Origin: Patescibacteria group bacterium
Lineage (GTDB): Bacteria; Patescibacteriota; Minisyncoccia; Phycocordibacterales; SIBU01
Reading direction: 5' to 3'
DNA: 64,000 bases
Assembly (NCBI GenBank): GCA_040390045.1
Contig: JAZJZC010000004.1
Coordinates: forward strand, 67,157-131,156
Part shown: positions 5,829 to 62,070 of the stretch, piece by piece
Position numbering within the stretch: the stretch's first letter is position 1
Layout of the letters: each line of letters starts with the position of its first letter
The notes under the pieces: generated by a model
The model's input: the letters and a program-made list of their open reading frames with translations, nothing else
Database searches by the model: none
What the model was told of the DNA's origin: nothing
Program-made: the position numbers and the translations under genes

Positions 5829-5965
5829 AGATTTTATGTGTACTGGTGAATCCAAACGCTTCCATACCGACACTCGTCGGCTTGGCCGTTTAGGTTGTTG
5901 AGAGAATATCCCAATCGGGTTCAATACTACAAAGATAGGAGGAGTTGTCAATCTTAAAATTTAAT

Positions 5966-6015: not shown

Positions 6016-7515
6016 TCAGCGGAACGAACGCGCTTTTGCAAGGACGTTATCGATTTGGATCGCTTCACCCCTGAGGTTATACGAGAAACTGAAAATTTCT
6101 TCCCATCGTGCCTTTGTGTTAGCCAGACAGAAAATTTTTCCAAGGGCCGAGTTCCAAGTATCAGTTTGGACGGTAGTAAACGCCAACTCTTCGGAAGGTC
6201 GCAGAATACATCTTGGAATATGATCCTGAATCGATGTTGTCGGGGTTCGCCACTTGGCGACATGAGCTGCCGCCTCCTGAGCCTCTGCGTAGGATGTACA
6301 CTCATTTGTGCGAATGAGTTTAGTCACGGCGTTTGGCTCCAACACACCAAAAGCCGCCAACTGGACAATGGAATAGCCAGCGCCTGGACTGAGGCCGCAT
6401 TCAAGGCCGACCTCTTCCAAAAAGTCTGCAACTTTGCTGGCGGCGTACACCCCCGCGCAGTCGAGAACTTCGCACAGCATCTGATCCGGATAGACCTGAA
6501 GATTTTCCAGCACTTTGGTCATTTGCGTCAGCGTGTGTGTGGTGACAAAAAACAAATCCGGCCAGGCCACGCGTTCGACGCAAGACTGCTCGATACCTCG
6601 TTCATGCCAGGTCTGGATGTTTTGTACAATCATCTGAACGTAACCTTCGGCCATGCGAAGCATGCCCCCCATTTGCTCGAGAGTGATCGTGTTGCGTTTG
6701 TGCGGCATACGAGAAGAACCGCGCTGACTTTTGCCAAATGGCTCACGCATCAGAGTCCTCCCACTTCGAGCGTTGAGACGGATGTCGGTGGCGATTTTTA
6801 CGATCGTCGCAACCAGTTGTCCAAGTGCGGAAGCAACCGGCGCGTAGACTTCGCGAGGAATGATTTGAGTAGCGCCGTAAAATGGCAGGAAACCCAAACT
6901 CGCGAGTGCCACTCTTTGAATCTCATCCGAAAGGTCGGGTGAGTTGCCTATAGCTCCGGAGAGCTTTGAGCGGTCGAGACCGCTTTTGGCGCGTTTCAAA
7001 TTCTCAACGCTAATCAAGATGGCCTTGAGCCACGTGGCGACACGTTTTCCAAAAGTCTGGAGTTCCGCCCACTGACCATGAGTTTCGCCAAGCATGACTG
7101 TGAAGCGATGGTGCTCAGCCTGCTTGATCAACACATCAATTAGAATGCCGGCCAACTTTTCAACTTCTCCGAGAGAAGCCAAAAGCATTTTGGCAAAGGC
7201 CGGTTCCTCAGTATCATAGGAAGTCATTTTTCCGTGAAAATACCGCTTTAGTGTCGAGTGTAAGTGCCGTTGTCTTTCCTCAACGAAGGCGATCAGATCG
7301 TGCCCGACTTCGGTATCTTTCTTTTTCCACCACTCAAGATCGATAGGAATACTCTCAAGCATTTGACGGATCGTCTCTGCTTCTTCGCGCAGAATTTCTC
7401 CGCAGGTTCCTCGAGCGTCGATCACTGCCAGTTCGGTTGCTTGCCAAAGCCGTAATTTGTTTTCATCCGTCCAGATTTCTTTTATAACAGGGTTTCGGGC
7501 GTATCGTGGGTGCAT
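6016..7515 (-). CDS. purB: adenylosuccinate lyase
   Basis: Fumarate-lyase signature GSSRMPHKRN. N-terminus ERY..IWTDENK matches PurB. Confidence 0.9.
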   Translation of the reverse strand: MHPRYARNPVIKEIWTDENKLRLWQATELAVIDARGTCGEILREEAETIRQMLESIPIDLEWWKKKDTEVGHDLIAFVEERQRHLHSTLKRYFHGKMTSYDTEEPAFAKMLLASLGEVEKLAGILIDVLIKQAEHHRFTVMLGETHGQWAELQTFGKRVATWLKAILISVENLKRAKSGLDRSKLSGAIGNSPDLSDEIQRVALASLGFLPFYGATQIIPREVYAPVASALGQLVATIVKIATDIRLNARSGRTLMREPFGKSQRGSSRMPHKRNTITLEQMGGMLRMAEGYVQMIVQNIQTWHERGIEQSCVERVAWPDLFFVTTHTLTQMTKVLENLQVYPDQMLCEVLDCAGVYAASKVADFLEEVGLECGLSPGAGYSIVQLAAFGVLEPNAVTKLIRTNECTSYAEAQEAAAHVAKWRTPTTSIQDHIPRCILRPSEELAFTTVQTDTWNSALGKIFCLANTKARWEEIFSFSYNLRGEAIQIDNVLAKARSFR

Positions 7516-9124: not shown

Positions 9125-10486
9125 ATGAATAAAAATGAAAGCCTCAGCGTATTTGTTGTTGGCAAAGGTGGACGTGAGCATGCCCTGGTGCATGCTCTTG
9201 CGCAGTCGCCACTCGTTGGTAAGCTTTGGTGCGCGAACGGAAATCCCGGAATAGCCGCAACCAAGTTGACGACAGGTAGGTTAGTTTATTGTCCGACGAT
9301 CGAGGAGCACGGAGAGCTTCTTGCGACTGCAGTCAGAGAACGGATGGATTTAACGATCTTCGGTGGCGAGGAGCATTTAATGGCCGGATTGGGTGACGCA
9401 TTTCGAATTCACGGACTCAACGTTTTTGGTCCAGGCTATCGAGGCGCCAACCTTGAAGGGTCGAAAATGTACGCTCAGCGGTTTGCTGAGCGACATGGTT
9501 TACCCTTCGCGGTCGGTGAATGTTTTGTCAGCAATATGCACGATGCATTTGAGTACGCAGAGTCACTCGATTATCGGTGTGTCGTTAAGGCCTCGGGACC
9601 TTGCCTCGGAAAGGGCGTGAAGGTTTGTCACAACGTGTCAGAAGTCGAGGAGGCCTTGCGGTTGATGATCGTGGATCGTAAGTTTGGCACGGCCGGTCAA
9701 AACATTGTCATCCAGGAACTACTGGAAGGACAGGAACTTTCGTTGCACATTCTGAGCGACGGAGTGAACTGGAGGTTACTTCCCATCGCGCAAGATCATA
9801 AGCGCCTCCTCGGTGACAATCTCGGCGACATGACCGGTGGCATGGGAACGTATTCTCCGCATCCGACAATCACCACTTCTGATCTGGAAAAAATTGCGGC
9901 TGAAATCATGCCGAAATTTCTCGAGGGTTGCAGGAGGGACAGCATTGTCTTTCAGGGCGTGTTGTTTTTTGGGCTCATGGTTACCGCGGATGGCGTTAAG
10001 ATTTTAGAGATCAACGTCCGTTTCGGAGATCCAGAAGCCCAAGCGATTCTTCCGAGAATTAAAACTGACATGGTAGAGCTTTTGCTGGCCACGGCGACAG
10101 GGCGGCTTGCCGAAGTGCCGCTTGAGGTGTACGAGGACCTCGCAACGGTCAACGTTGTCATGGTATCGGCGGGATACCCGGGAAACTACAACAAAGGTTT
10201 TCAAATTACGGGAATTGAAAGCGCAGAAAAAATTCTTGGAATCAAAGTTTACCATGCCGGTACGGCGATCGAGCGAGGAGTTCTGGTGACAAACGGTGGG
10301 CGAGTGCTGAGCGTGTGCTCATGCGCGCGCGATCTCAAAACTGCGCATGAACGCGCATACCATGCCGTCGAACTTATTAAGTTTTCCGGCGCGTACTATC
10401 GCCGAGATATTGGCAGGCAGGTTCGTAAGGCGACCTACGATGGTTATACTCCGCAGTTGGCACCCTATCGGTTGCAGCACGAGTAG
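9125..10486 (+). CDS. purD: phosphoribosylamine--glycine ligase
   Basis: VFVVGKGGREHAL N-terminus and an ATP-grasp core. Confidence 0.9.
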   Translation: MNKNESLSVFVVGKGGREHALVHALAQSPLVGKLWCANGNPGIAATKLTTGRLVYCPTIEEHGELLATAVRERMDLTIFGGEEHLMAGLGDAFRIHGLNVFGPGYRGANLEGSKMYAQRFAERHGLPFAVGECFVSNMHDAFEYAESLDYRCVVKASGPCLGKGVKVCHNVSEVEEALRLMIVDRKFGTAGQNIVIQELLEGQELSLHILSDGVNWRLLPIAQDHKRLLGDNLGDMTGGMGTYSPHPTITTSDLEKIAAEIMPKFLEGCRRDSIVFQGVLFFGLMVTADGVKILEINVRFGDPEAQAILPRIKTDMVELLLATATGRLAEVPLEVYEDLATVNVVMVSAGYPGNYNKGFQITGIESAEKILGIKVYHAGTAIERGVLVTNGGRVLSVCSCARDLKTAHERAYHAVELIKFSGAYYRRDIGRQVRKATYDGYTPQLAPYRLQHE

Positions 10487-14765: not shown

Positions 14766-15443
14766 GTGGAAACTGAAAAAAAAGTTACATCGCACGCAAT
14801 CGGAACGATTTTCGTTAAGGTTCGTGCTGACGGTGAGGTTGAGGCTGCCGCGATGCATTACACAAAACGTGAGAAGAGAACCAAGCAACTCCGTACGACC
14901 TTGAGGCTCCCGATGGGTAAAGGGAAGAAGGTAGAGAGGGAATCTCTAACCGAGACTCAGGTCCGTGAGGCGGTTCAGGAATGCGCAAAAATACCTGCTG
15001 ACTTTGATTATGAGTTCGAGTTCCGCGGTCTCGTGTATTATGCCGTGGTGCCTGACGATGACAACGGCGACAGCGAACTGCATCTGAAAGCCTTTATGGT
15101 TGCGCGGCTGAAAAAGGGTGAGTTGCGGGATTACCAGGCCAACGAACAGGAGTACGATCCTGACACCGGTAAACCTATCCCTGACGAGGTTGAAATTCTT
15201 GGGCCTTTGAAGTGGTACGAGATTCGCGAGGTTCTCAACGAAATGGCAAGACAGGGAAACGGCCTGTATGTTCACACTACTGCTGTTCTTGCTACACTCG
15301 TTGCTCTTGCGGGAAAGTACCCGAAGGTTGAAGCTCGTTACGGTGGCATCGTTAATCGGCCTGACGTGCAGCAGCGAGTCGCCATTTCAGCAAATTACAG
15401 GGACGAGGTCAAAGCCTACGTCGGCTCGCTCCAGGCCACTTGA
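14766..15443 (+). CDS. hypothetical protein (GTG start, locally GC-rich)
   Basis: Long ORF. AAAGGA lies 5 nt before GTG. GC clearly above neighbours. No recognisable domain. Confidence 0.5.
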   Translation: METEKKVTSHAIGTIFVKVRADGEVEAAAMHYTKREKRTKQLRTTLRLPMGKGKKVERESLTETQVREAVQECAKIPADFDYEFEFRGLVYYAVVPDDDNGDSELHLKAFMVARLKKGELRDYQANEQEYDPDTGKPIPDEVEILGPLKWYEIREVLNEMARQGNGLYVHTTAVLATLVALAGKYPKVEARYGGIVNRPDVQQRVAISANYRDEVKAYVGSLQAT

Positions 15444-24054: not shown

Positions 24055-24804
24055 ATGAACACTCCAAAGATCAATATTCTGATTAACGGCTGGACCGGCA
24101 AGATGGGCACCGCCTTACTCGCCTGCGTAGAAAAACATCCAGGGCTTGAGGTCGTCGGAAAAATCTGTCACTCGGATCAGGTGGACGGCAAACTTCTCGA
24201 TGTCGATGTTGTCGTGGATTTCGTCAATGATCCCGGGGTAAGCACCTCCATGGCAGTGACCTGCGCTGCAATTAAAAAATCAATCGTTATTGGCACTACC
24301 GGTCACACCGACGAACAGCGTCAGATCATTGAGGACATGGCAAGAATCACTCCCATTGTCATGACCTCAAATTTCTCGATCGGAGCCAACTTGCTTTTTT
24401 GGCTCAGTGGCGTCGTCACGGAAAAAGTTGGAATTGGCGTCGACATAGAAATTGTTGAGATGCATCACTGCCTCAAAAAGGATGCACCGAGTGGCACGGC
24501 GCTGACGTTGGCAGAAATTATTGCCGCGGCTCGAAGCAAACAACTTCATGATGTTGTCCAATTTGGCCGACACGGAACGACTGGACCGCGAAGCCAAGAT
24601 GAGATCGGGATTCACTCGATTCGCGGCGGCGATGTGGTCGGGGATCACACGGTACTGTTTGCCGCCATCGGCGAACGAATCGAATTGACGCACAAGGCTT
24701 CCAGCCGCAACACGTTCGCCGAAGGCGCACTACGTGCTGCAGAGTGGGTTGTAAAGCAAAAACCTGGTTTGTACGACATGCAGGACGTTCTCGGTCTCCG
24801 TTGA
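24055..24804 (+). CDS. dapB: 4-hydroxy-tetrahydrodipicolinate reductase
   Basis: EIVEMHHCLKKDAPSGTA signature. Confidence 0.88.
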   Translation: MNTPKINILINGWTGKMGTALLACVEKHPGLEVVGKICHSDQVDGKLLDVDVVVDFVNDPGVSTSMAVTCAAIKKSIVIGTTGHTDEQRQIIEDMARITPIVMTSNFSIGANLLFWLSGVVTEKVGIGVDIEIVEMHHCLKKDAPSGTALTLAEIIAAARSKQLHDVVQFGRHGTTGPRSQDEIGIHSIRGGDVVGDHTVLFAAIGERIELTHKASSRNTFAEGALRAAEWVVKQKPGLYDMQDVLGLR

Positions 24805-29593: not shown

Positions 29594-30598
29594 TCAATAA
29601 ATGCACTCACCCGCGGACTGACTGATGCCGGCATCGAAAATTTCTCGTGCTCGGCAGGTGCTTCCGAGGATTCGATTCACTCCGGCCTCGTACATAGCTG
29701 CAAAATTACGGTACCGTCGACCGACCTCTCCAATTTCATCTTCGGTGAGAATCGGGTATTTAGGATTGGGTAATCCGTGCGAACGCGTAATGTCGAGCGC
29801 CTTCTTGAAACCTTTTTCGATCAGAAGTTGCCTTAGGTATTCCTTCGAGTAGTGCTCAACCTGTCCCGGCTTGAGCGTTTTGGTCAGAGCATAGCGATCC
29901 TCGTTAGGAGTTCCAAACGAGTCAATCACCACTGGGTGTCTCTTCCGCCCAGACAAGGCAATTTCTTTTTTGCCATCGAGCCTCGTAAAGCCCGCCGACC
30001 GCGCCGCAAGTGCAAGTGCGCCATTGAGGCGATTAATAACTCGCCAGACACTTCGCCATTCGGTCAGAGTAATTCCAGCATACGCCAAGGCTTCTTCTGT
30101 GGTCGCAATTGGGCGGTCGACATCTTCCCATTTCGTAGTCACTTCGTGGGAAGGAAAAGGCAACAGAGTTCCTTCAGTGGGAAGTTTGTCCGAGCCGTCA
30201 CTTTCAAAACCGAAATCAGTCGGTTTCCTTTTTCCCGATATGAAGTCACGGTTGAGGTTGCCCGAAACCGCTTCACGGTCAATCCACTCCAGTGATACCA
30301 TAACGTCGGTCTCACCAGGATTTAATGCCAGCCCCTTTAATGTATTGAACCGGCGCACCAATATCGTCCACTCATCCTCTTGCTCGAGAATGCAGGTCTG
30401 GACGCCGACTGCCGTGGCGATTCGATTTGATGCCATGGTGGCTCGAACCACAGCCTTTCCCATTTCCGGAATTGGCTGTGAGCAGCGGCCGATGTCGAAC
30501 GCAGACCAATTGTTGGTGTGCACGAAAGCGAGGGTTTGCGCGTCGACCTCGTAGATGTCTTTAACGCTACCTTGGTGGATAAGCTCTCTGCTTTTCAT
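29594..30598 (-). CDS. purC: phosphoribosylaminoimidazole-succinocarboxamide synthase
   Basis: GSVKDIYEVD...SAFDIG N-terminus typical of SAICAR synthetase. Locally GC-rich. Confidence 0.8.
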   Translation of the reverse strand: MKSRELIHQGSVKDIYEVDAQTLAFVHTNNWSAFDIGRCSQPIPEMGKAVVRATMASNRIATAVGVQTCILEQEDEWTILVRRFNTLKGLALNPGETDVMVSLEWIDREAVSGNLNRDFISGKRKPTDFGFESDGSDKLPTEGTLLPFPSHEVTTKWEDVDRPIATTEEALAYAGITLTEWRSVWRVINRLNGALALAARSAGFTRLDGKKEIALSGRKRHPVVIDSFGTPNEDRYALTKTLKPGQVEHYSKEYLRQLLIEKGFKKALDITRSHGLPNPKYPILTEDEIGEVGRRYRNFAAMYEAGVNRILGSTCRAREIFDAGISQSAGECIY

Positions 30599-39794: not shown

Positions 39795-41561
39795 ATGTCA
39801 GGAAACGTAGATCAAATAAAAGAAAGGCTTAGCATAGTTGATGTTGTCGGTTCCTATGTTAAGCTCGAAAAAGCAGGTAGCAACTACAAAGCTCGGTGTC
39901 CATTTCATAATGAAAAGACGCCGTCCTTTTTCGTGTCGCCAGATAGAAATTCCTTTTACTGCTTCGGCTGCCAAGTGAAAGGTGATATTTTTTCCTTTGT
40001 CGAACAATTTGAAGGGTTGGATTTTGTCGGAGCACTAAAGGTTCTAGCTCAAAAAGCTGGAGTGACACTGGAACGAGAAAATCCTAAAGCTAAGAGCGAA
40101 AAAGACAGACTGTACTCAGTACTCGATGCTGCAACTAGCTTTTTCGAAAAATCATTGAGTTTGGATTCTGAGGCAAAAGAATATTTGGCCAAGAGGGGAG
40201 TAAAACCTGAAACTATTAAAGATTGGCGATTAGGTTTTGCGCCCGACTCTTGGAGGGCGCTGTACGATGATCTTACTGCCAAAGGCTTTACTACCGGAGA
40301 GATGATTTCTGCAGGACTTGTTAAGAAATCGGAGAAAGGTTTCTTCGATTTTTTCCGTGGCCGAATTATGTTTCCGATTTTTGACAGCTCAGAAAGAGTT
40401 ATCGGATTTTCCGGCAGAATTCTATCGCGACTTGATGACGGAAAAACTGGCAAATACGTCAATAGCCCTGAAACAATCCTGTTCAACAAGTCGCGAGTTC
40501 TGTACGGCTTGCACAAAGCGAAATACGACATTCGAAAACGTGATTATTCAATCATGGTGGAAGGCCAAATGGATCTGGTACTCTCACACCAGGCCGGCTT
40601 CAGCAACACTGTTGCCGTCTCAGGTACCGCACTTTCGCAAGACATTTTAAGTGATAATGGAGTGACTAATCTCGGACTGCTAACACGACTTTCAAAAAAC
40701 ATTATTCTTTCGTTCGATTCTGACGAGGCGGGTTTTAAGGCGTCCGCACGAAACGCTAAAACCGCGTTAATGCTTGGGATGGATGTAAAAGTTGCAAAGC
40801 TGCCACAGGGCGAGGATCCTGCTGATATTATCTTGAGAAATCCTGCCGAGTGGGCGGAAATTATTAAAAATTCCAAACACGTCATTGATTTTTCTCTCGA
40901 AACTCTGCTTGAGAAAAAACTTGAACCGCGAAAATTGGGTGTTGAGATTCAAAAACTCATACTGCCATACGTAAAATCGCTTCAAAGTGCTATCGATCAG
41001 TCACACTTTATAACAAAAATTTCCGCATTGGCTGGAATAAAAGAGGACGCGCTATGGGCTGAGTTTAAGAAAATTGAAGTGGAACCAGCGATTGAAACTT
41101 TGCAGTTTAAAACCTCCGAAACCGCTGAACCCAAAAAAGCCAACCGAAAAAATAATATCGAGAAAAAAGTTTTAGGGATTCTAGTCTGGCAAGAAGCCAA
41201 AAAGAGCGATCAGAAAATTAATGTTTCCGAACTTCGAAAAAACTTGGTAGCAATCTTAGGCAACGAACAGTTTAACCTTTTAGAAACCGCAAACAAAAAC
41301 AACCTTAATGATTTAATTTTTGAAGCCGAGCTGTCCTACGATAACTCCTTAAATCTCAAGCACACAATCGCAGAACTTTTACTTAATCTTGAAGAAGAAG
41401 TCATTGATCAAAAGTTGGCAGAAGCTATGAGCCTGTTGTATTCGAAGGAAAATAAAACCCATAGCGTGCATATGACCTCCGTTGACACTCTGTCACGAAG
41501 AAAGCAGGAATTACGTCTACTTAGAAGTAAATTGACCACAGAAAGTAGCAATAAATTATGA
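39795..41561 (+). CDS. dnaG: DNA primase
   Basis: Zinc-binding CPFHNEKTPSF...CFGC motif and a TOPRIM core. Confidence 0.9.
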   Translation: MSGNVDQIKERLSIVDVVGSYVKLEKAGSNYKARCPFHNEKTPSFFVSPDRNSFYCFGCQVKGDIFSFVEQFEGLDFVGALKVLAQKAGVTLERENPKAKSEKDRLYSVLDAATSFFEKSLSLDSEAKEYLAKRGVKPETIKDWRLGFAPDSWRALYDDLTAKGFTTGEMISAGLVKKSEKGFFDFFRGRIMFPIFDSSERVIGFSGRILSRLDDGKTGKYVNSPETILFNKSRVLYGLHKAKYDIRKRDYSIMVEGQMDLVLSHQAGFSNTVAVSGTALSQDILSDNGVTNLGLLTRLSKNIILSFDSDEAGFKASARNAKTALMLGMDVKVAKLPQGEDPADIILRNPAEWAEIIKNSKHVIDFSLETLLEKKLEPRKLGVEIQKLILPYVKSLQSAIDQSHFITKISALAGIKEDALWAEFKKIEVEPAIETLQFKTSETAEPKKANRKNNIEKKVLGILVWQEAKKSDQKINVSELRKNLVAILGNEQFNLLETANKNNLNDLIFEAELSYDNSLNLKHTIAELLLNLEEEVIDQKLAEAMSLLYSKENKTHSVHMTSVDTLSRRKQELRLLRSKLTTESSNKL

Positions 41562-41638
41562 GGTAGTTTTATAAAGAAAACCCTTGATAACCCTGCTAAA
41601 TAGTGTTAAAGTGCCTTCAAATAAACCTAAATTTTGAT

Positions 41639-42862
41639 ATGAAAAAAACCAAAAGCAAAAAGTCTAAAATCGTAAAAAAGCCAGTTTCCAAGGCAAAAAC
41701 CTCTAAGAAGTCCAAAGCTCAAAAGGCTCCTAAAAAGAAGCTAAAATCAAAAGCCAAGGCTCCAAAAGCCTTCGTTTCCAAGAAAGACAAGGAAATGAAT
41801 GACAAAGCGCAGAAACTTTTCCTCAAGGGTAAGGATCGCGGTTTCGTCACTCACGATGAAATCCTCAAAGAATTTCCTCACATCGAGGACGATATTTTTT
41901 TCCTGGATCAACTCTATGCCAAACTTCACGATGGTGGAATTGACATCCTAGAAAGTGGTGGAATGCTCGACCTCGGTGATGAGGTTGCGACAAAGAAAAA
42001 TGTTTACGAAGGACGCGCATCAGAGTCTTCCTACGACTCGATCCAGATGTATCTGAAAGAAATTGGTCAGTACCCTTTGATTTACGCACAAGAGGAAAAA
42101 GATTTAGCCAAGAGAATTCAGACTGGCGATGAAGAAGCAAAAAATCTTTTGGCTCGTGCCAACCTCAGACTCGTGGTTTCAATTGCCAAAAAATACGTCG
42201 GTCGCTCGCCCGACCTCACCCTTCTCGACCTCATTCAAGAAGGTAACCTCGGTCTTTTCAAAGCAGTCGATAAATTCGATTGGACCAAAGGTTTCAAATT
42301 TTCAACCTACGCCACCTGGTGGATCCGCCAGGCTATTACTCGCGCCTTGGCAGACCAATCTCGCACCATTCGCGTCCCAGTACACATGGTAGAAACTATT
42401 GCTAAATACAAACAAGTCGTCCGCCGACTTTCTCAAGACCTAGGCCGCGATCCGTTACCTGAAGAAATTGCCGTTGAAATGGGACTTGATGTTGAGAAAG
42501 TTTATAATATTGAAAAAATTGATCAGGATACTGTATCACTCGAAAGCCCAGTAGGGGACGAAGGTGATGATGGTAAATCAACTCTCGGGGATTTTATCGC
42601 TGATGACAAAATTCTTTCACCTGACCACGAATCATCTCGCCGCATTCTTTCCGATCAAGTCAAAGAAATTCTCAACGATCTTTCAGAAAAAGAACGACGA
42701 ATTTTGGAAATGCGTCATGGACTAAATGACGGCGTCACTCACACCCTCGAAGAAGTCGGTCAAAAATTCGGCGTCACACGCGAGCGTATCCGCCAAATTG
42801 AAGCTAAAGCTCACGAAAAAATAAGACAACACGATAAGGCTAAAAGACTCGAAAATTACTAA
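41639..42862 (+). CDS. rpoD: RNA polymerase sigma-70 factor RpoD with Lys-rich N-terminal extension
   Basis: Regions 2-4 present ([23 protein letters not shown]). ATG at 41639 preferred over GTG at 41603. Confidence 0.88.
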
Positions 42863-42866
42863 TTTT

Positions 42867-42900
42867 AAAACCGCCCCCGATGAACATCGCGGGCGGTTTT
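42867..42900 (+). terminator. rho-independent terminator after rpoD
   Basis: aaaaccgcccccgatgaacatcgcgggcggtttt. Confidence 0.75.
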
Positions 42901-42969
42901 GTATAAAGAAAAAACCCAATATCCGGAGATATTGGGTGCCTCGTTAAGTCGAGACTGACAGTGATACTG

Positions 42970-44382
42970 CTACTCAGTGGTGGCAGGCGGAACCGGAGTT
43001 CCCCGAAGCCAGTCGAAAAGGTTGCCCTCATCAAAAGCGGCAATAAGGTTGACCGCAACCTTCTTCAGATGATTTCCCAAATCCCTGCCTGCCCAGTTGG
43101 TGTTGTAATCGTAGGCAATGGGTTTATGGAAAATGTGCCAGTAGGGCCGATCGATGGCATTAAAACCCACTAGCCCTCCTTGATTAGCGCGGAGAAATGC
43201 AATCGTGTCCGCGACCATTTCATTGAACAATGGGAATGTCCCGGAATCCGAGAACCTTCCGATCACAAACATGTACGGGATTCCTTTTTTGAATCCTACA
43301 ACGTACGGATCAATTGATCGCAACCAGTTGGTGTTCTTCCAGTCGCCGCCAGCGACGTCATGATAAGGGGTCATTATCACGAGATAATCAAAAAGGCCAC
43401 GTGCCTCCCGAATTCGCCGCGAGATGGCTGGGGGAATCTGATCTCCTCCGTAGTGGCGAAGGGTCCGCGTGCGACGGTTGTACATCTGAAAAAAGTCCGC
43501 CCAGTTTTGATTGGGAAACAAGTTGCAGAAATACTTAGTCGATGAATGGACCTTCGGGTCCGGAACTTCCCAGATTTGATCCGCTTCGCGTGTCCCAGCC
43601 TCATCTGCCCAAAAATACCAAACTGGCACAGCGGTGAACAGGTCAGGTAGGTACTGGATCGGCAAGATCGTATCTCGCCGAACGAGATTCTCAGTGATCA
43701 TGAATCGAAGAGTCTCGCGAAACGATTTGAACCGGGCCACTTCGGCTCGGAGCGAATTGTTCTGCACATCCATGCCGAGCTCACTCTGGTTTTTAATGGC
43801 TTCATCAACTCCGGCATCAAGGGCGGTATCGTCCTCAGCCAGGCTAAATGTTGAGCCGAACTGGGCCAGCGCTGGGAACAGGTGCTCCAGGAAGAGCCGC
43901 ATCAGTTCGCCAACATTTTCCGGCACCGACGAGTCCCGAGGGACTTCCGATGCGGGTTGATTGGCAACCACCTGTGCGATCACCTCCGGCGGAATAGTTT
44001 TCACGCCCATGGCTTTCTGCCGAGCCGTCGGTTGTACCTCATTTGTAGCGAGTGCTCCTCCAGCGAATGGCGCCAGAGCAACAAAGCCCGGGATCGCTTG
44101 CGTGCCGGCGGGGATGAGCTCAATCTCAATGGTTTCAACAGCCCCGATGGCACGGTAGTACCCCGTTCCACGTTTCGGATCATTGGCCACATTAAACGAA
44201 ACCACCATACCCACGCGAGGTGGAGAGGAGCAGTCATCCTTATGCAGGAAGATGTCCGCGATGGTTTCGATGTTGTGTGGCCCACCATGGCTCATTGCCA
44301 CGGTCCTGATACCGATGAACGCGTATCCGTCATTACCCGGGACACTCACTACCCGGCCAGTGTATTTTCCAGCAGTTTGCAT
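42970..44382 (-). CDS. uncharacterized protein: N-terminal cold-shock/OB-like domain fused to large unknown C-terminal domain
   Basis: N-terminus GRVVSVPGNDGYAFIGI...DIFLHKDD resembles a CSD. C-terminal roughly 380 aa unrecognised, with possible HD-like H...HD...H.H.D spacing (RHYGG, YHDVAGG, WHIFHK). GC far above window average. SD-like AAAGG 7-10 nt upstream. Confidence 0.6.
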   Translation of the reverse strand: MQTAGKYTGRVVSVPGNDGYAFIGIRTVAMSHGGPHNIETIADIFLHKDDCSSPPRVGMVVSFNVANDPKRGTGYYRAIGAVETIEIELIPAGTQAIPGFVALAPFAGGALATNEVQPTARQKAMGVKTIPPEVIAQVVANQPASEVPRDSSVPENVGELMRLFLEHLFPALAQFGSTFSLAEDDTALDAGVDEAIKNQSELGMDVQNNSLRAEVARFKSFRETLRFMITENLVRRDTILPIQYLPDLFTAVPVWYFWADEAGTREADQIWEVPDPKVHSSTKYFCNLFPNQNWADFFQMYNRRTRTLRHYGGDQIPPAISRRIREARGLFDYLVIMTPYHDVAGGDWKNTNWLRSIDPYVVGFKKGIPYMFVIGRFSDSGTFPLFNEMVADTIAFLRANQGGLVGFNAIDRPYWHIFHKPIAYDYNTNWAGRDLGNHLKKVAVNLIAAFDEGNLFDWLRGTPVPPATTE

Positions 44383-44498
44383 TGTTACCTTTCAGTCAGT
44401 TGGACAGTCAGTCAGAATCTTTCAAAGGACCTATCCGTTTCCTTCAGAGATACTAAACACCACAGCGGCGTTCAGTAGACTGAAGGAAACCTCGACGC

Positions 44499-44528
44499 AT
44501 TATAATACATTTATACCTACTTTGTCAA
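44499..44528 (-). promoter_or_regulatory. near-consensus sigma70 promoter driving the CSD-fusion gene
   Basis: Minus strand reads TTGACA-17/18-TATAAT. The 5' UTR is about 115 nt and contains a 10-bp perfect inverted repeat tttccttcag/ctgaaggaaa (44438-44489). Confidence 0.55.
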
Positions 44529-44533
44529 CAATT

Positions 44534-44560
44534 AAAAAGACGCCTGAAAAGCGTCTAAAG
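44534..44560 (-). terminator. terminator after the small Rx4H protein gene
   Basis: Minus strand reads agacgc-ttttcag-gcgtct followed by ttttt. Confidence 0.6.
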
Positions 44561-44575
44561 ATGAGGGTGATTTAA

Positions 44576-44845
44576 TCAAATTGGAGAGACCAAGAAGGGG
44601 TATTTGTCTGGATTGAAACCGCTTTCCTTGAGCGCATCGCGAAGGTCGGCAAGTCCAGCCCAAACTTGGTCCTTCTTTTTGCTACCACTGGGAAGGCTGA
44701 TTGAAAGAAGCTGGTTGACGCTATCAATTCGGTGCTTCAGCATAAACCGGAATGTCGGACGCCTGATTTTGAACCCAGCGTGAACGGAAAACTGGCCGAT
44801 TGACATGGCTCCCAATTTCGCCAGCCTTGAATTTTTTCTTCCCAT
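44576..44845 (-). CDS. small hypothetical protein with Rx4H motif (possible HEPN-like)
   Basis: ATG at 44843-44845; the track start is TTG at 44869. Contains RFMLKH. Confidence 0.35.
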   Translation of the reverse strand: MGRKNSRLAKLGAMSIGQFSVHAGFKIRRPTFRFMLKHRIDSVNQLLSISLPSGSKKKDQVWAGLADLRDALKESGFNPDKYPFLVSPI

Positions 44846-44921
44846 AACATTAGAACAATAGCTTTTCAAAGCTTACCCCACGTATTAATTTTGTGCAATT
44901 AGTCATGCTATACTTTTTGGC

Positions 44922-47840
44922 ATGGATTCACAGGAATTTACCAGGGCTTATAAAAACCTAAATTTAAAGCAAAAGGAAGCAGTAGACGCCATTGAAGGGC
45001 CGATCATGGTCATTGCTGGGCCTGGAACTGGTAAAACAACCATTCTTACCTTGCGTATTGCTCAAATTCTCCGTAAAACTGACACCCCTGCTTCTGGAAT
45101 TTTGGCAATTACCTACACTGAAGCGGGAGTCAAGGCCATGCGACAAAAGTTGCGACAAATTATTGGCTCGAGAGCGGATGAAGTGCGAATTCACACCTTT
45201 CATAATTTTGCCTCGTCCGTTATCGGAGAATTTAGAGATCATTTTGTGCATTTAGATCGAACGACCCAACTTAGTGATATCGAAGCTGAAAGTCTAATCC
45301 GTGAACTTTTAGAAACAGGAAAATTTCGTGACCTACGACCGTTTGGTAATCCTGATTTTTATATTCAAAAAATTATTAGTGCTATTAGCGATTCCAAGCG
45401 CGAGGCCTACACACCTGAGATGATACGGGCTTTTGTGGCGGATGAAAAAAAGAGAATTGAGAATGATGAGGAATCTGTTTCAACGCGCGGGAGTTCAAAG
45501 GGGGAGTTGAAAGCCGAGGCCAAAAAAGAGATCGAGAAAGGCGAGCGTACACTGGTTTTCGCTGATCTATACGAAGCGTACGAAAATAAAAAACGAGAGG
45601 ACAGGAAGATGGATTTTGATGACTTGATTATTGAACTCCTTTTAGCGCTCAGAAAAGACGAACTATTGTTGAGAATGCTACAGGAAAAATTTCTTTATTT
45701 ATTGGTAGACGAACATCAGGATACCAACAACTCCCAAAACGAGATTATTAAACTTTTGGCAAACTTTTTTGATGTGCCAAACATTTTCATAGTAGGAGAC
45801 GAGAAGCAATCAATCTATCGATTTCAAGGAGCGTCAGTTGAAAATTTTTTGAAGTTTCAAAGCTTGTGGAAAGATCTAAAAATCATTAACCTTGAAGCCA
45901 ACTACCGTTCTCACCAAAAAATCTTGGATGCCAGTTTTTCCATGATAGAGAACAACTATGCAAACGGTGAACATGAAAATTTACGAATTAAACTTCAAGC
46001 TAGTGGCGAAGAAGAGTCCCGTCCTGTGGATATTGTCAGCGGAAAAAACACCGAAACAATTGAAGAATATTTGATATCAGAACTAAGAACTATTCTAAAA
46101 AAAGAGCCCAAAGCCTCAGTAGCTCTTATCACCAAAACCAACCGTGACCTTGAGCGAGTACTTCGATTGTGTGAGACAAACAACGTGCCTGTTTCATCTG
46201 AACGAAGTGTCGATATTTTTAGCCATCCTATCGGTTCTTTATTTTTCGATCTTGCTGAGTTTTTATATGACCCGTCTCAACTAGAATTATTTGCTAAAAC
46301 CCTTATCGCTGGCCTGTGGGGAGTCACCTTTGAAAATTCAGTTGAATTATTGAAACTAATTAAAGCAGGTAAAAAAATCGATTTTTCAAAATTTCCTGAA
46401 CTTAAAATATTACAAAAAGAAATTACAAGTAACGGTGCCTTTAATTTTATAATTCTTCTAGCAGAGAAAAGTGGCTACGCAGCCATAACTGCTCGCGAGC
46501 CGGAGTATGTCGAAGTTTGGCGTGGCATTACCACATTGGCGGAAAATTTAATCCGCGAAGCCGATCTCACTGATCCACGAGAACTACTGAAACGACTTAT
46601 AGCTTACAAAACCTCGGCTGAAAACCGTAGTATTAAAATTAGTGTTGGAACACCAGATACCTCGATCCGAGCAATGACTGCCCACGGAAGTAAGGGTCTT
46701 GAATTTGATTACGTGTACATTCCATACGCCACTGAAGAGTCGTGGATCGGAAGAAATTGGGGCTATTATTTTGTTCTGCCAAAAACCAGAACTGCCAATG
46801 AGGTACCTGATGTCAGACGACTGTTTTACGTCGCACTTACACGTGCTCGCAAACATGTCACGATTCTTTTTGGAGAGGAGGAGCACGGCGATGGACTTTT
46901 GCCGTTGCGATTTATCGACGAGCTTGACCCAGCGCACACCTCGCGCATATCCTTGCCGGCTGGCTCTGTGAAAAAAGTGTCAGAAACTAAAGTACGCTCG
47001 CTCAGCGATCACAGCAAAAAAACTCTCGAGTATGCTAAACATCTTTTGCAAACCTCAGGATTATCGGTCACCGCGCTTAATCACTTTCTTGAGTGCCCGA
47101 GTGCTTTTCTCTATCAAAGTATTCTAAAACTTCCTCAAGCACCTGCGGCAACAGCCGAAAAGGGTAACGCCATGCATCTCGCTTTCTCAAAAGTTTGGGG
47201 ATCAGTGGATAAGAGCAAGAAAAATATTGAAAAAATTCTCACCGATACTACCGAATATTATTTTTCGGAATCGCTTTTGCCATTATTTGAAAAAGAAGCA
47301 GTGAAAAAAGAATTACTGCGAGATATTCCTATTGTTGCTCGCGAACTTGAATTTCATTTTGCTCAAGAAGGAAAAATATTTTCCGAAACATGGAGTGAGT
47401 CAGAGTTCAAAGGTAAACACCAAAAACAAGAAGTCGTGATTCCCGTTCACGGCAAAATCGACGCCATTGTCGATTCAGGGAAGGAAGCAAAAGTGTTTGA
47501 CTACAAGACTAAGAAAGCCATGTCTGAAAACGAGATTCGCGGTAATACCAAAAATAGCAACGGGGATTATTTCCGCCAATTAGTATTTTACAGACTGCTC
47601 CTTGAGCATGATTCTCGTTTTACAGGCCGCTTAATCACACCATCGCTTGTCTTTGCCGTTCCAGATGACAAGGGCAGATGTCCAACAATTACCTTAGCTG
47701 TTGAAAAAACTGATCTCGAAAAAATAAAAGCTGAAATTCAATCTTTGATCGATTCTGTTTGGTCGGGATCCCTTCTTACAGACAGATGTGAAGATCCAAA
47801 ATGTGAATGGTGTAAGCTCAAAGCAATATTACTCGCGTAG
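44922..47840 (+). CDS. UvrD/PcrA-family helicase fused to C-terminal Cas4/AddB-like Fe-S PD-(D/E)XK nuclease
   Basis: Walker A AGPGTGKTT, DEHQDTN, and helicase motifs. C-terminal D...DYKTKK nuclease core with C...CEDPKCEWC cysteine cluster. Confidence 0.8.
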   Translation: MDSQEFTRAYKNLNLKQKEAVDAIEGPIMVIAGPGTGKTTILTLRIAQILRKTDTPASGILAITYTEAGVKAMRQKLRQIIGSRADEVRIHTFHNFASSVIGEFRDHFVHLDRTTQLSDIEAESLIRELLETGKFRDLRPFGNPDFYIQKIISAISDSKREAYTPEMIRAFVADEKKRIENDEESVSTRGSSKGELKAEAKKEIEKGERTLVFADLYEAYENKKREDRKMDFDDLIIELLLALRKDELLLRMLQEKFLYLLVDEHQDTNNSQNEIIKLLANFFDVPNIFIVGDEKQSIYRFQGASVENFLKFQSLWKDLKIINLEANYRSHQKILDASFSMIENNYANGEHENLRIKLQASGEEESRPVDIVSGKNTETIEEYLISELRTILKKEPKASVALITKTNRDLERVLRLCETNNVPVSSERSVDIFSHPIGSLFFDLAEFLYDPSQLELFAKTLIAGLWGVTFENSVELLKLIKAGKKIDFSKFPELKILQKEITSNGAFNFIILLAEKSGYAAITAREPEYVEVWRGITTLAENLIREADLTDPRELLKRLIAYKTSAENRSIKISVGTPDTSIRAMTAHGSKGLEFDYVYIPYATEESWIGRNWGYYFVLPKTRTANEVPDVRRLFYVALTRARKHVTILFGEEEHGDGLLPLRFIDELDPAHTSRISLPAGSVKKVSETKVRSLSDHSKKTLEYAKHLLQTSGLSVTALNHFLECPSAFLYQSILKLPQAPAATAEKGNAMHLAFSKVWGSVDKSKKNIEKILTDTTEYYFSESLLPLFEKEAVKKELLRDIPIVARELEFHFAQEGKIFSETWSESEFKGKHQKQEVVIPVHGKIDAIVDSGKEAKVFDYKTKKAMSENEIRGNTKNSNGDYFRQLVFYRLLLEHDSRFTGRLITPSLVFAVPDDKGRCPTITLAVEKTDLEKIKAEIQSLIDSVWSGSLLTDRCEDPKCEWCKLKAILLA

Positions 47841-61560: not shown

Positions 61561-62070
61561 TCAGGCGAGGGTGGGGCGAAGAAGTGAGGAAACGGGTGGT
61601 TGCCTAATCGGCGCTCGGAGCGTCTCTGACGCGGCGTCGATTTCGGCGACTACAGCGCCGACCAAACTCAGTGCCAAGCCTTTCATGTCATTAGAATTTG
61701 GGTCGGAGGGATCAATGGCCTGAGTAATACCGAGGATACGTAGAGCCTCAGCAACTTTTTTGGGGTCGGCAAGCACGGCGTCGAGTTCGGGATCCATAAG
61801 CGTATCGACGCCCAGTTCAAGCGGAATTACCACCATGGCCAAAAAAAGGGCGTTCATGTTCGGAGGGTGAGAATTGACACTCCGAGAGGTCGGAAGATCT
61901 ATCATTTTCCCTAGTCCACAGGAACGATCCAAGTCACTGAACGATATGTCACGCATCTTCATTACATCGACAATTCTGTCAGCCAACACGCGCCGACAGC
62001 GGGGAAGACCCTCAAAAAGGAGAGTACTACAAGGGGCATTAGGTCGGTTAAACATAAAACGAGCTTTCAA
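61561..62070 (-). CDS. GC-rich hypothetical protein (weak call)
   Basis: ORF of 169 aa, or 131 aa from MRDIS. No motif. Confidence 0.3.
   Translation of the reverse strand: MKARFMFNRPNAPCSTLLFEGLPRCRRVLADRIVDVMKMRDISFSDLDRSCGLGKMIDLPTSRSVNSHPPNMNALFLAMVVIPLELGVDTLMDPELDAVLADPKKVAEALRILGITQAIDPSDPNSNDMKGLALSLVGAVVAEIDAASETLRAPIRQPPVSSLLRPTLA

What the first reader, a model, noticed from the sequence alone, without database searches (positions are those of the whole stretch)
42970..44869. GC-rich two-gene unit: cold-shock/OB-like fusion protein with unknown C-terminal domain plus small Rx4H protein
The 470-aa protein begins with a cold-shock-like OB fold and continues into roughly 380 aa that I cannot assign to any family. 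Possible HD-like H/HD/H/H/D spacing is the only hint. The 89-97-aa upstream gene carries an Rx4H motif of the kind seen in HEPN RNases. GC content is far above the rest of the window. The large gene has a near-consensus TTGACA-17/18-TATAAT promoter, an SD, and a 115-nt 5' UTR with a perfect 10-bp stem; the small gene has its own terminator. The unit is wedged between the rpoD terminator and a helicase-nuclease gene. This looks like a horizontally acquired, independently transcribed module of unknown function, possibly nucleic-acid targeting or stress/defence related.
Basis: partly seen in the sequence, partly recalled or inferred. Interest (0 to 1): 0.75.

Follow-up and report, generated by a model that had tools for sequence, protein, structure and literature searches.

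The report
Cold-shock-domain fusion gene with switch-like leader
This is one self-contained gene, not a two-gene unit, for a protein found almost only in the tiny Patescibacteria: a cold-shock RNA-binding domain tethered to a domain of no known fold, expressed through a conserved, previously undescribed folded RNA leader.

Summary

- The small upstream ORF is an orphan. It has no homologue, it is absent from all related loci, and its Rx4H motif is expected by chance in 14-35% of shuffles.
- No histidine is invariant in the C-domain, so the HD idea fails.
- The gene belongs to a compact family of about 190 clusters, essentially confined to Patescibacteria. It is always a stand-alone gene in unrelated contexts.
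- The GC excess is a family trait: GC3 is about 17 points higher in 32 of 33 genomes. The nearest relative is only 57.5% identical. A simple recent transfer is therefore unlikely.

New finding: in about 25 loci the gene is preceded by a conserved structured leader that is not in Rfam. It has three covarying helices and a covarying, mutually exclusive alternative pairing. This resembles csp 5'UTR thermoswitches.

Best reading: a strongly expressed, leader-regulated stress or RNA-binding protein. The biochemical activity of its C-domain is unknown.

The parts
42970..44382 (-). CDS of the 470-aa protein. CSD = residues 1-86 (44125-44382). Low-confidence linker = residues 87-114 (44041-44124). C-terminal domain of unknown fold = residues 115-470 (42973-44040). 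Stop codon at 42970-42972.
44499..44528 (-). Sigma-70-type promoter: TTGACA (44528-44523), 18-nt spacer, TATAAT (44504-44499).
   Evidence: 12/12 match. It is the only perfect match in the 64-kb window, with 0.02 expected. Equivalent TTGACA-N16-19-TAnnnT sites lie upstream of the leader in about 20 of 25 related loci.
44383..44492 (-). 5' leader RNA of about 110 nt.
- P1: 44490-44480 pairs with 44447-44437.
- P2: 44477-44467 pairs with 44461-44451.
- P3: 44436-44431 (GGAUAG) pairs with 44407-44402 (CUGUCC).
- Pyrimidine segment 3 (UCCUUUGAAAGAU): 44429-44416.
- CUGACUGA box plus SD: 44399-44387.
   Evidence: The motif is conserved upstream of the gene in about 25 loci (CM hits down to E=1e-19). 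Covariation for P1/P2/P3: 89.5% of cells paired against 42-54% in slid controls, and 26 of 28 pairs with compensatory changes. Alternative helix. Folds. No Rfam match.
42914..42937 (-). Intrinsic terminator of the large gene (10-bp stem followed by a T-run).
42867..42900 (.). GC-rich palindrome between the convergent rpoD and the large gene. It looks like a bidirectional terminator serving rpoD.
   Evidence: Inverted repeat I3, 16-nt arms, 94% complementary. Sequence.
44538..44556 (-). Terminator-like hairpin plus T-run just upstream of the -35 box. It ends whatever is transcribed from the small-ORF region and insulates the promoter.
44576..44869 (-). Orphan small ORF: 97 aa from a TTG start, or 76 aa from the ATG at 44806. 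It is not part of the conserved unit.
   Evidence: The only database hit is itself. No Pfam, NCBIfam, PADLOC or PHROG hit. No tblastn hit in 57 related loci, and the Rx4H motif is at chance level.

Best explanation
The region holds one conserved, monocistronic gene.

Protein. It has an atypical cold-shock domain with RNP1- and RNP2-like motifs kept and a roughly 18-aa insertion. A low-confidence (probably flexible) linker joins it to a 355-aa helical plus alpha/beta domain. That domain has no detectable relative outside this family and no match among solved or viral structures. The family is essentially restricted to Patescibacteria.

Expression. The gene is transcribed from a consensus promoter. 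Its roughly 110-nt leader folds into a long 5' hairpin (P1+P2) and a second hairpin (P3).

Proposed regulation (inferred). The purine-rich 3' arm of P1 can instead pair with a pyrimidine-rich segment in the P3 loop. That releases the anti-SD-like 5' arm (UUUCCUUCAGUC), which can then lock the CUGACUGA-SD region. This gives an open and a locked conformation, as in csp 5'UTR thermoswitches. The balance would be set by temperature and/or by the protein's own cold-shock domain binding the single-stranded pyrimidine segments.

Proposed protein function (inferred). The protein is an abundant stress-type RNA-binding factor. The cold-shock domain tethers single-stranded RNA to the C-domain. The C-domain's conserved Asn, Arg, Thr, Tyr, Asp and Ser residues, many lying just after beta-strands in the predicted secondary structure, suggest a phosphate-bearing ligand such as RNA or a nucleotide. 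The activity itself is unknown.

Other points. The GC-rich, extra-structured coding region is a family trait held by selection on the mRNA, not a scar of recent transfer. The small upstream ORF is an unrelated orphan.
For: Shown:
- Family size and restriction. 144 homologues were found. Only 194 proteins reach E<=1e-3 in 1.84 billion representatives when searched with the C-domain profile. 48 genome loci were recovered; most record titles name Patescibacteria-type lineages and a minority carry other, apparently automatic, labels.
- Stand-alone gene with unrelated neighbours.
- CSD fold and motifs.
- The C-domain can stand alone in about 20% of members.
- The consensus promoter is unique in the window.
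- Leader helices covary.
- Alternative helix: 81% of cells paired against 44-60% in slid controls.
- Cognate versus non-cognate duplex test. Segment 2 with segment 3 gives -12.3 against -7.9 kcal/mol, p<2e-4. This is as strong as P1 itself.
- Window leader: 5' arm with the RBS region gives -14.1 kcal/mol, z=-3.6. The full alternative fold is 6 kcal/mol above the MFE.
- When P1 is penalised, 18 of 25 leaders form the 2:3 helix and 16 of 25 pair the 5' arm with the RBS region.
- GC3 excess in 32 of 33 loci, confined to the CDS and leader.
- The nearest homologue is 57.5% identical.
- The CDS is more structured than shuffles, compared with neighbouring genes (Mann-Whitney p=0.006).

Published analogue: S. 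aureus cspB/cspC thermoswitches. These have 110-160-nt UTRs and a long 5' hairpin that sequesters an anti-RBS, with open and locked conformations (PMC8034633).
Against: - No experiment supports any of this. The temperature response and binding by the protein's own CSD are purely inferred.
- In the window's own leader the P1 state is favoured by 6-16 kcal/mol, and more so at 10 C. The switch may therefore need a factor, or may not operate in this copy.
- RBS sequestration has only weak family-wide support (mean z -0.66, p=0.013). The cognate test for it is negative.
- The leader was not detected in the more distant half of the family.
- Nothing indicates what the C-domain does. The ligand-site inference rests on the conservation pattern and predicted secondary structure only.
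- The cause of the GC3 excess is not established.
Confidence: 0.5

Rival explanations
1. One reading: a recently acquired, mobile two-gene module for defence or nucleic-acid targeting, made of a HEPN-like small protein and a CSD-fusion effector.
For: - The gene sits in a different genomic context in every genome.
- It forms a GC island with its own promoter and terminator.
- One locus (L005) lies next to methyltransferase/MutH-like genes.
- In L003 a tRNA gene lies directly upstream.
Against: - The small ORF is an orphan without partners.
- Neither protein has a PADLOC, Pfam or PHROG hit.
- No copy was found in IMG/VR or in phage genomes.
- No integrase or convincing flanking repeats are present.
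- Most contexts are housekeeping genes such as FtsH, RecG, MraZ and PNPase.
- The GC excess is universal in the family, always in the same direction, and the nearest homologue is 57.5% identical.
Confidence: 0.08
2. The leader is only a 5'-terminal stabilising hairpin, with a second hairpin, that protects a highly expressed mRNA from 5'-end-dependent decay. There is no conformational switching. The apparent alternative pairing is a by-product of repeated SD-like and anti-SD-like sequences.
For: - In about half of the loci the promoter places the transcription start within a few nucleotides of the base of P1.
- P1/P2 is the MFE in nearly all leaders and is much more stable than the alternative in the window copy.
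Against: - Segment 3 co-evolves with the 3' arm of P1 as strongly as the 5' arm does. It shows compensatory changes in 6 of 8 pairs.
- The 5' arm is strongly complementary to the RBS region in the window and several other copies.
- The loop and pre-SD sequences are conserved.
Confidence: 0.25
3. The C-domain is a new RNA-directed enzyme, such as a nuclease or modifier that prefers A/U-rich single strands, delivered to its substrate by the cold-shock domain. The GC-rich, structured coding region exists to shield the gene's own mRNA from this activity.
For: - CSDs feed single-stranded RNA to catalytic domains in RNase R/II and Rho (established knowledge).
- Polar residues N302, R304, R306, T338, Y340, D358, R376 and S378 are conserved even in the distant L054 homologue; R304 and R306 sit just after a predicted helix and T338/Y340, D358 and R376/S378 at the ends of predicted strands.
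- The general GC3 rise affects both NNC and NNG codons.
- The CDS has extra structure.
Against: No catalytic motif of any known nuclease or transferase was found and there is no fold match. There is no toxin-antitoxin-like partner. Selection on the mRNA has other possible causes.
Confidence: 0.12
4. The GC excess simply reflects very high expression: selection for optimal codons, or stronger purifying selection against AT-biased mutation.
For: Consensus promoter. Csp-type genes are typically among the most expressed (established knowledge).
Against: - The shift is equal for NNC and NNG codons rather than specific to C-ending optimal codons.
- rpoB/rpoC, rpoD and dnaG in the same window have ordinary GC3 of 0.38-0.41.
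- Offsets of +30 to +45 GC3 points in some genomes are far larger than usual expression effects.
Confidence: 0.15

Closest known systems
Bacterial cold-shock proteins (CspA/CspB family, Pfam PF00313) and CSD-containing multidomain RNA proteins (RNase R/II, Rho, eukaryotic Unr/Lin28/YB-1)
   Different: The window protein does not reach any Pfam CSD score, and a PDB profile search gives only E about 0.4. There is a roughly 18-aa insertion between RNP1 and RNP2. The CSD is fused through a low-confidence (probably flexible) linker to a 355-aa domain found nowhere else.
csp 5'UTR RNA thermoswitches (E. coli and L. monocytogenes cspA; S. aureus cspB/cspC, PMC8034633)
   Same: Leader of about 110 nt. 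A long imperfect hairpin starts near the 5' end and sequesters an anti-RBS-like strand. A mutually exclusive alternative fold can lock the RBS. A single-stranded pyrimidine motif could serve as a Csp binding site (paper).
   Different: There is no sequence or Rfam similarity, and no hit to Rfam's cspA thermoregulator. Here the alternative uses four segments (1:2 against 2:3 plus 1:4) and an extra covarying hairpin, P3. The downstream gene is a 470-aa fusion protein rather than a 7-kDa Csp. The temperature response is untested.
HEPN RNases (proposed for the small ORF)
   Same: One Rx4H string (RFMLKH).
   Different: 76-97 aa, against the HEPN size given in the membership table. No homologues and no profile hits. 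The motif is expected by chance in 14-35% of shuffles.

Membership tests
Cold-shock domain (PF00313) | Five-stranded antiparallel beta-barrel (OB fold) of about 70 aa | tested here: met
Cold-shock domain (PF00313) | RNP1 (K/G-F-G-F-I) and RNP2 (V-F-V-H-F) nucleic-acid-binding motifs | tested here: met
   GY(A/G)F(I/V) with F22 invariant. DIF(L/V)H with F45 nearly invariant and H47 invariant, in 38 sequences. A divergent subfamily has GDVFCP instead.
Cold-shock domain (PF00313) | Score above the Pfam gathering threshold | tested here: not met
   No PF00313 hit for the window protein at E<=1. Only 'faint' precomputed hits in some homologues. CspB in the PDB reaches E about 0.4 with the family profile.
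HEPN RNase (small ORF) | Rx4-6H catalytic motif within an alpha-helical domain of about 110 aa or more, with recognisable relatives (size criterion from my own recall of the family, not checked against a source here) | tested here: not met
   The motif is present once but at chance level (P=0.14 and 0.35). The ORF is only 76-97 aa. There are no homologues and no Pfam or PADLOC hit.
HD phosphohydrolase (C-domain hint) | Invariant H...HD...D metal ligands | tested here: not met
   No invariant or near-invariant His in the C-domain in 38- and 22-sequence alignments. The H341-D342 pair of TPYHD varies (TPYTD, TPYLD, TPYHE, TPYLE). No Pfam HD hit.
csp-type 5'UTR thermoswitch (functional class) | Long leader (110-160 nt) with a long 5' hairpin | tested here: met
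   Leader of about 110 nt. The P1+P2 hairpin has 22 covarying pairs.
csp-type 5'UTR thermoswitch (functional class) | Mutually exclusive alternative conformation | tested here: met
   The 2:3 helix covaries and passes the cognate versus non-cognate test. This evidence is computational only.
csp-type 5'UTR thermoswitch (functional class) | The alternative conformation sequesters the RBS | tested here: inconclusive
   Strong in the window copy (-14.1 kcal/mol, z -3.6) and in 16 of 25 alternative folds. The family-wide mean z is only -0.66 (p=0.013), and there is no cognate signal.
csp-type 5'UTR thermoswitch (functional class) | Temperature- or Csp-dependent shift that changes expression | not testable with these tools
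   Needs structure probing, toeprinting and reporter assays.
Known anti-phage defence systems (PADLOC) | Profile match and defence-island or mobile-element context | tested here: not met
   No PADLOC hit. Contexts are mostly housekeeping genes. Absent from IMG/VR and INPHARED.
Recently transferred genomic island | Atypical composition together with a close relative elsewhere and/or mobility genes or flanking repeats | tested here: not met
   Composition is atypical but equally so in 32-33 of 33-35 genomes. The nearest homologue is 57.5% identical. No integrase, and no repeats beyond a 14-nt A/T-rich pair.

The most novel reading that the evidence does not exclude
The C-terminal domain is a new protein fold with an RNA- or nucleotide-directed activity specific to Patescibacteria. 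The whole transcript is a co-evolved RNA-protein regulatory device. It comprises a four-segment switch leader and a GC-rich, over-structured coding region maintained in every host genome regardless of its base composition. In this device the protein senses or remodels its own mRNA.
Probability: 0.15. Interest if true: 0.85.

Novelty: new variant of a known kind. Interest (0 to 1): 0.6.

Why it matters
Patescibacteria make up a large share of bacterial diversity, yet almost nothing is known about how they regulate genes or handle RNA. This locus provides four things.
- A phylum-restricted protein family that couples a recognisable RNA-binding domain to a confidently modelled domain with no structural relative. 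That makes it a good target for structure and function work.
- A new, strongly covarying cis-regulatory RNA that appears to work like the csp thermoswitches of Firmicutes and Proteobacteria. If so, that regulatory logic extends to the candidate phyla radiation.
- A gene whose synonymous sites are GC-enriched in every genome examined. This is a clean natural case for studying selection on mRNA composition and structure.
- A caution against reading a single-gene GC island as horizontal transfer.

Tried and rejected
- Pfam, NCBIfam, PADLOC and PHROG scans of both proteins gave nothing.
- Pfam on 10 divergent members and on each of 22 C-domains at E<=5 gave no consistent family.
- A profile search against PDB sequences gave only weak CspB hits.
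- Foldseek against BFVD gave nothing.
- The AFDB50 library was unavailable.
- IMG/VR and phage genomes gave no homologue.
- Rfam in E-value mode on the region, and at gathering threshold on the window and 12 loci, found no leader family.
- My metagenome pattern scan for the leader was too strict.
- Flanking-repeat search found nothing convincing.
- Pairing of segment 3 with the SD showed no signal.
- A hard-constraint attempt to forbid P1 blocked all pairing of those bases and was discarded. It was redone with a soft penalty.
- My first register for the alternative helix was off by one, which the slide control revealed. It was corrected.
- ART (R-S-E), nucleotidyltransferase (G[GS]...DxD), PD-(D/E)xK and SLOG-like readings of the C-domain motifs were considered from memory. 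They were dropped because the motif geometry does not fit the predicted secondary structure and there is no fold match.
Full report
**What is at the coordinates**

The minus strand carries a 470-aa ORF at 42970-44382 and a 97-aa ORF at 44576-44869. The small ORF starts at a TTG; read from its ATG at 44806 it is 76 aa.

The large ORF is flanked by clear signals.
- A perfect TTGACA-18-TATAAT promoter lies at 44528-44499. It is the only such site in the 64-kb window, where 0.02 are expected by chance.
- An AAAGG Shine-Dalgarno sequence sits 7 nt before the ATG, and the leader is about 110 nt long.
- An intrinsic terminator lies at 42937-42914. A second terminator-like hairpin at 44556-44538 follows the small ORF and sits directly upstream of the -35 box.

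The neighbours are dnaG (39795-41561) and rpoD (41603-42862), which converge on the gene. On the other side is a divergent UvrD/PD-(D/E)XK helicase-nuclease at 44922-47840.

**The large protein**

Neither protein hits Pfam, NCBIfam, PADLOC or PHROGs.

The large protein is identical to a hypothetical protein of a Patescibacteria MAG. A search found 144 homologues at E<=0.001; the 120 listed all have E<=1e-90, and their full-length members (about 440-560 aa) are 36-58% identical to the query. Most carry no name; the few sources that name the organism say Patescibacteria-group or Moraniibacteriota/Kaiserbacteria MAGs.

A 38-sequence alignment shows an N-terminal region with GY(A/G)FI and DIF(L/V)H motifs, the equivalents of RNP1 and RNP2. 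F22 and H47 are invariant and F45 is nearly so. Next comes a variable linker, then a strongly conserved C-terminal region with these motifs: AxPVW, FNRRxR, TPY, W, DPYxxG, RFSxxGxFP, D, W and LFxWLR.

A family profile searched against PDB sequences finds only CspB, at E about 0.4. No histidine is invariant in the C-domain, and the H-D of TPYHD varies between members. The HD idea therefore fails.

**Family extent and architecture**

A profile of the C-domain alone was scored against 1.84 billion representative proteins. It found only 194 at E<=1e-3, of which 185 are at E<=1e-10. This is a compact family with no distant superfamily.

Of 202 members with a complete C-domain, 144 have the CSD by HMM. 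About 16 more have a divergent CSD (GYSFIG...GDVFCP). About 41 have only 0-74 residues before the C-domain. The C-domain is therefore an autonomous module and the CSD is an accessory tether.

Divergent members have no additional Pfam domains. Scanning each of 22 C-domains at E<=5 gives no consistent family.

**Genomic context**

In six long contigs the gene is always a stand-alone gene. Upstream gaps are 235-600 nt and the neighbours are unrelated. They include NUDIX and haloacid-dehalogenase-family hydrolase genes, FtsH and RecG, MerR next to a methyltransferase/MutH pair, MraZ, and MscL and MurJ.

A genome scan returned 48 loci. Their titles include Nomurabacteria, Moraniibacteriota, Doudnabacteria, Kaiserbacteria, Taylorbacteria, Uhrbacteria, Falkowbacteria, Kuenenbacteria, Andersenbacteria and Paceibacteria. 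A few carry doubtful automatic labels.

No copy exists in IMG/VR or in phage genomes.

**The small ORF**

Its only match among 5.8 billion clustered proteins is itself. tblastn finds nothing in 57 related loci. No locus has an equivalent upstream partner.

The RFMLKH string is expected in 14% of composition-matched shuffles as Rx4H, and in 35% as Rx4-6H.

The ORF may be a real lineage-specific gene, since it is followed by a terminator. It is not part of a conserved unit, and nothing supports a HEPN assignment.

**A conserved leader RNA**

Comparing the upstream regions of distant homologues revealed a conserved element. RNAalifold on six leaders, and then on 25, predicts three helices.
- P1 is a 9-11-bp helix. 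Its 5' arm is UUUCCUUCAG and its 3' arm is CUGAAGGAAA.
- P2 is a coaxial 12-bp helix with a variable loop.
- P3 is a downstream hairpin, GGAUAG:CUAUCC.

In the 25-leader prediction, every predicted pair shows a compensatory change in at least one sequence (13 of 24 pairs did so with six leaders).

The helices were tested on a structure-blind MAFFT alignment of 25 leaders. There, 89.5% of cells pair, against 42-54% when the partners are slid by 1-3 columns. Compensatory changes occur in 26 of 28 pairs, and 0 of 500 shuffles reach the observed values.

Covariance models find the element once per locus, immediately upstream of the gene, in about 25 loci. E-values go down to 1e-19. It occurs nowhere else in the window or in about 0.5 Mb of related sequence. 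It was not detected in the more distant half of the family.

Rfam has no match. This holds in E-value mode on the region and at gathering threshold on the window and on 12 loci.

**Switch-like features**

The 3' arm of P1 is also complementary to a pyrimidine-rich segment (UCCUUU...) in the P3 loop. This alternative helix pairs in 81% of cells, against 44-60% in slid controls. Six of its eight pairs show double changes, and 0 of 500 shuffles reach the score.

A cognate versus non-cognate duplex test does not depend on the alignment register. It gives -12.3 against -7.9 kcal/mol for this pairing (p<2e-4). That is as strong as P1 itself, at -11.8 against -7.7.

Just before the SD lies a conserved CUGACUGA(A/C)UGGAG box. 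In the window copy the 5' arm of P1 pairs with this box and the SD at -14.1 kcal/mol, z=-3.6. The complete alternative fold combines the 5' arm with the RBS region, the 2:3 helix and P2. It lies 6 kcal/mol above the MFE at 37 C.

When P1 is penalised, 18 of 25 leaders form the 2:3 helix and 16 of 25 pair the 5' arm with the RBS region. The median cost is 6 kcal/mol.

Family-wide support for RBS locking is weak. The mean z is -0.66 (p=0.013) and there is no cognate signal. The P1 state is favoured in the window copy, and more so at 10 C.

The layout closely parallels the S. aureus cspB/cspC thermoswitches. Those have a 110-160-nt UTR and a long 5' hairpin that sequesters an anti-RBS, with open and locked conformations. 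CspA binding to a U-rich loop shifts their balance (PMC8034633). I infer the same logic here. I have not shown it. The single-stranded pyrimidine segments are candidate binding sites for the protein's own CSD.

**The GC anomaly**

In the window the gene has the highest GC (0.537) and GC3 (0.589) of 44 long ORFs. Seven other ORFs also sit at GC 0.51-0.525. They are PurD, a PurB-like lyase, PurC, DapB, a TIM-barrel protein and two unknowns.

The excess is a property of the family.
- In 35 loci with flank GC between 0.30 and 0.61, the gene is GC-richer than its flanks in every one. The mean excess is +8.8 points.
- GC3 is higher by 17 points on average, in 32 of 33 loci. GC2 is unchanged.
- Examples of GC3 against neighbouring genes: 0.57 against 0.19-0.27, 0.75 against 0.29-0.45, and 0.67 against 0.24-0.32.
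- The rise begins at the leader or start codon and ends at the stop codon.
- It affects NNC and NNG codons equally.
- A distant CSD-less homologue is a 72%-GC island in a roughly 50%-GC contig.

The nearest relative of the window protein is 57.5% identical, and the family median nearest-neighbour identity is 57%. An un-ameliorated recent transfer would need an unsampled donor in every case, always of higher GC.

I therefore favour a gene-specific force acting on the mRNA. In line with this, the coding regions are more structured than synonymous-codon shuffles. The mean z is -2.9, with -5.1 for the window copy. Normal-GC neighbours average about -0.8. The coding regions are also more structured than dinucleotide shuffles: -0.68 against -0.22, Mann-Whitney p=0.006. 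The cause remains unexplained.

**Verdict**

The large gene and its signals are real and more interesting than described. The small-ORF, HEPN and HD elements are not supported, and neither is the simple horizontal-transfer reading.

The best explanation is a strongly expressed, leader-regulated CSD-tethered protein of a Patescibacteria-restricted family. The biochemical role of its C-domain is unknown (confidence about 0.5).

I class it as a new variant of a known kind: a csp-like gene and leader with a novel domain and a novel RNA motif. Interest is 0.6.

Noticed in passing
window 4470-5951(-), 6016-7515(-), 9125-10486(+), 14766-15443(+), 24055-24804(+), 29594-30598(-), 61561-62070(-): Gene GC in the window is bimodal. 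These seven ORFs plus the studied gene have GC about 0.52 and GC3 0.52-0.59, against about 0.41 for the rest. They are scattered singly among low-GC genes. They encode an AP_endonuc_2/TIM-barrel protein, a Lyase_1 (PurB-like) protein, PurD, DapB, PurC and two proteins without Pfam hits. Three of them also fold more stably than synonymous shuffles (z -1.5, -2.4, -4.6).
   Followed up: partly
L054 3800-5122 (contig CAVVDF010000007.1, labelled 'uncultured Actinomycetes'): A distant (28% identity), CSD-less homologue of the C-domain. It forms a 72%-GC island in a roughly 50%-GC contig and lies next to an SRAP-like gene (my reading of its MCGRFG... N-terminus; no profile search was run). Several motif residues differ (R303S, Y360F, D392A). 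The host label is uncertain.
   Followed up: partly
window 44387-44420 and equivalent positions in L009, L012, L013, L033 and others: Tandem CUGA repeats (CUGACUGACUG...) occur twice in the leader: on the 3' side of the P3 loop, and directly before the SD. In some loci they place UGA stop codons in all three frames just upstream of the start codon.
   Followed up: partly
alignment A1 columns about 326-372 (P0094, P0104, P0107, P0108, P0110, P0115, P0116): A subfamily carries a conserved insertion of about 47 aa (…GWxLPGARVSPAVIGSLV…) in the helical part of the C-domain. This gives proteins of 510-560 aa.
   Followed up: no
L003 5781-5854 and 2083-2509: In this locus a tRNA gene ends about 5 nt before the -35 box of the gene's promoter. 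A tmRNA gene and smpB lie nearby.
   Followed up: no
L005 1-5401: Here the gene sits beside a DUF3644 gene, a LexA-like/N6_N4 methyltransferase fusion, a MutH-like gene, a RadC-like gene and a MerR/HTH_17 gene. This is a restriction-modification or mobile-looking neighbourhood, unlike the housekeeping contexts of the other loci.
   Followed up: no
window 42906-42919 and 44827-44840: A 14-nt, 86% complementary A/T-rich inverted repeat brackets the whole unit, from the terminator of the large gene to the start of the small ORF. It is probably chance.
   Followed up: no
window 43634-44575 (+): Long antisense ORFs (198, 130 and 108 aa) overlap the gene. They are most likely a by-product of its high GC, which leaves few stop codons, rather than genes.
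   Followed up: no
CSD-less members P0126, P0135, P0143, P0146 and the linker of fused members: A short linear motif, DPRxLYVPPTxxQ...MKxVPxExV, precedes the C-domain in both fused and CSD-less proteins. It may be a docking or regulatory segment.
   Followed up: no
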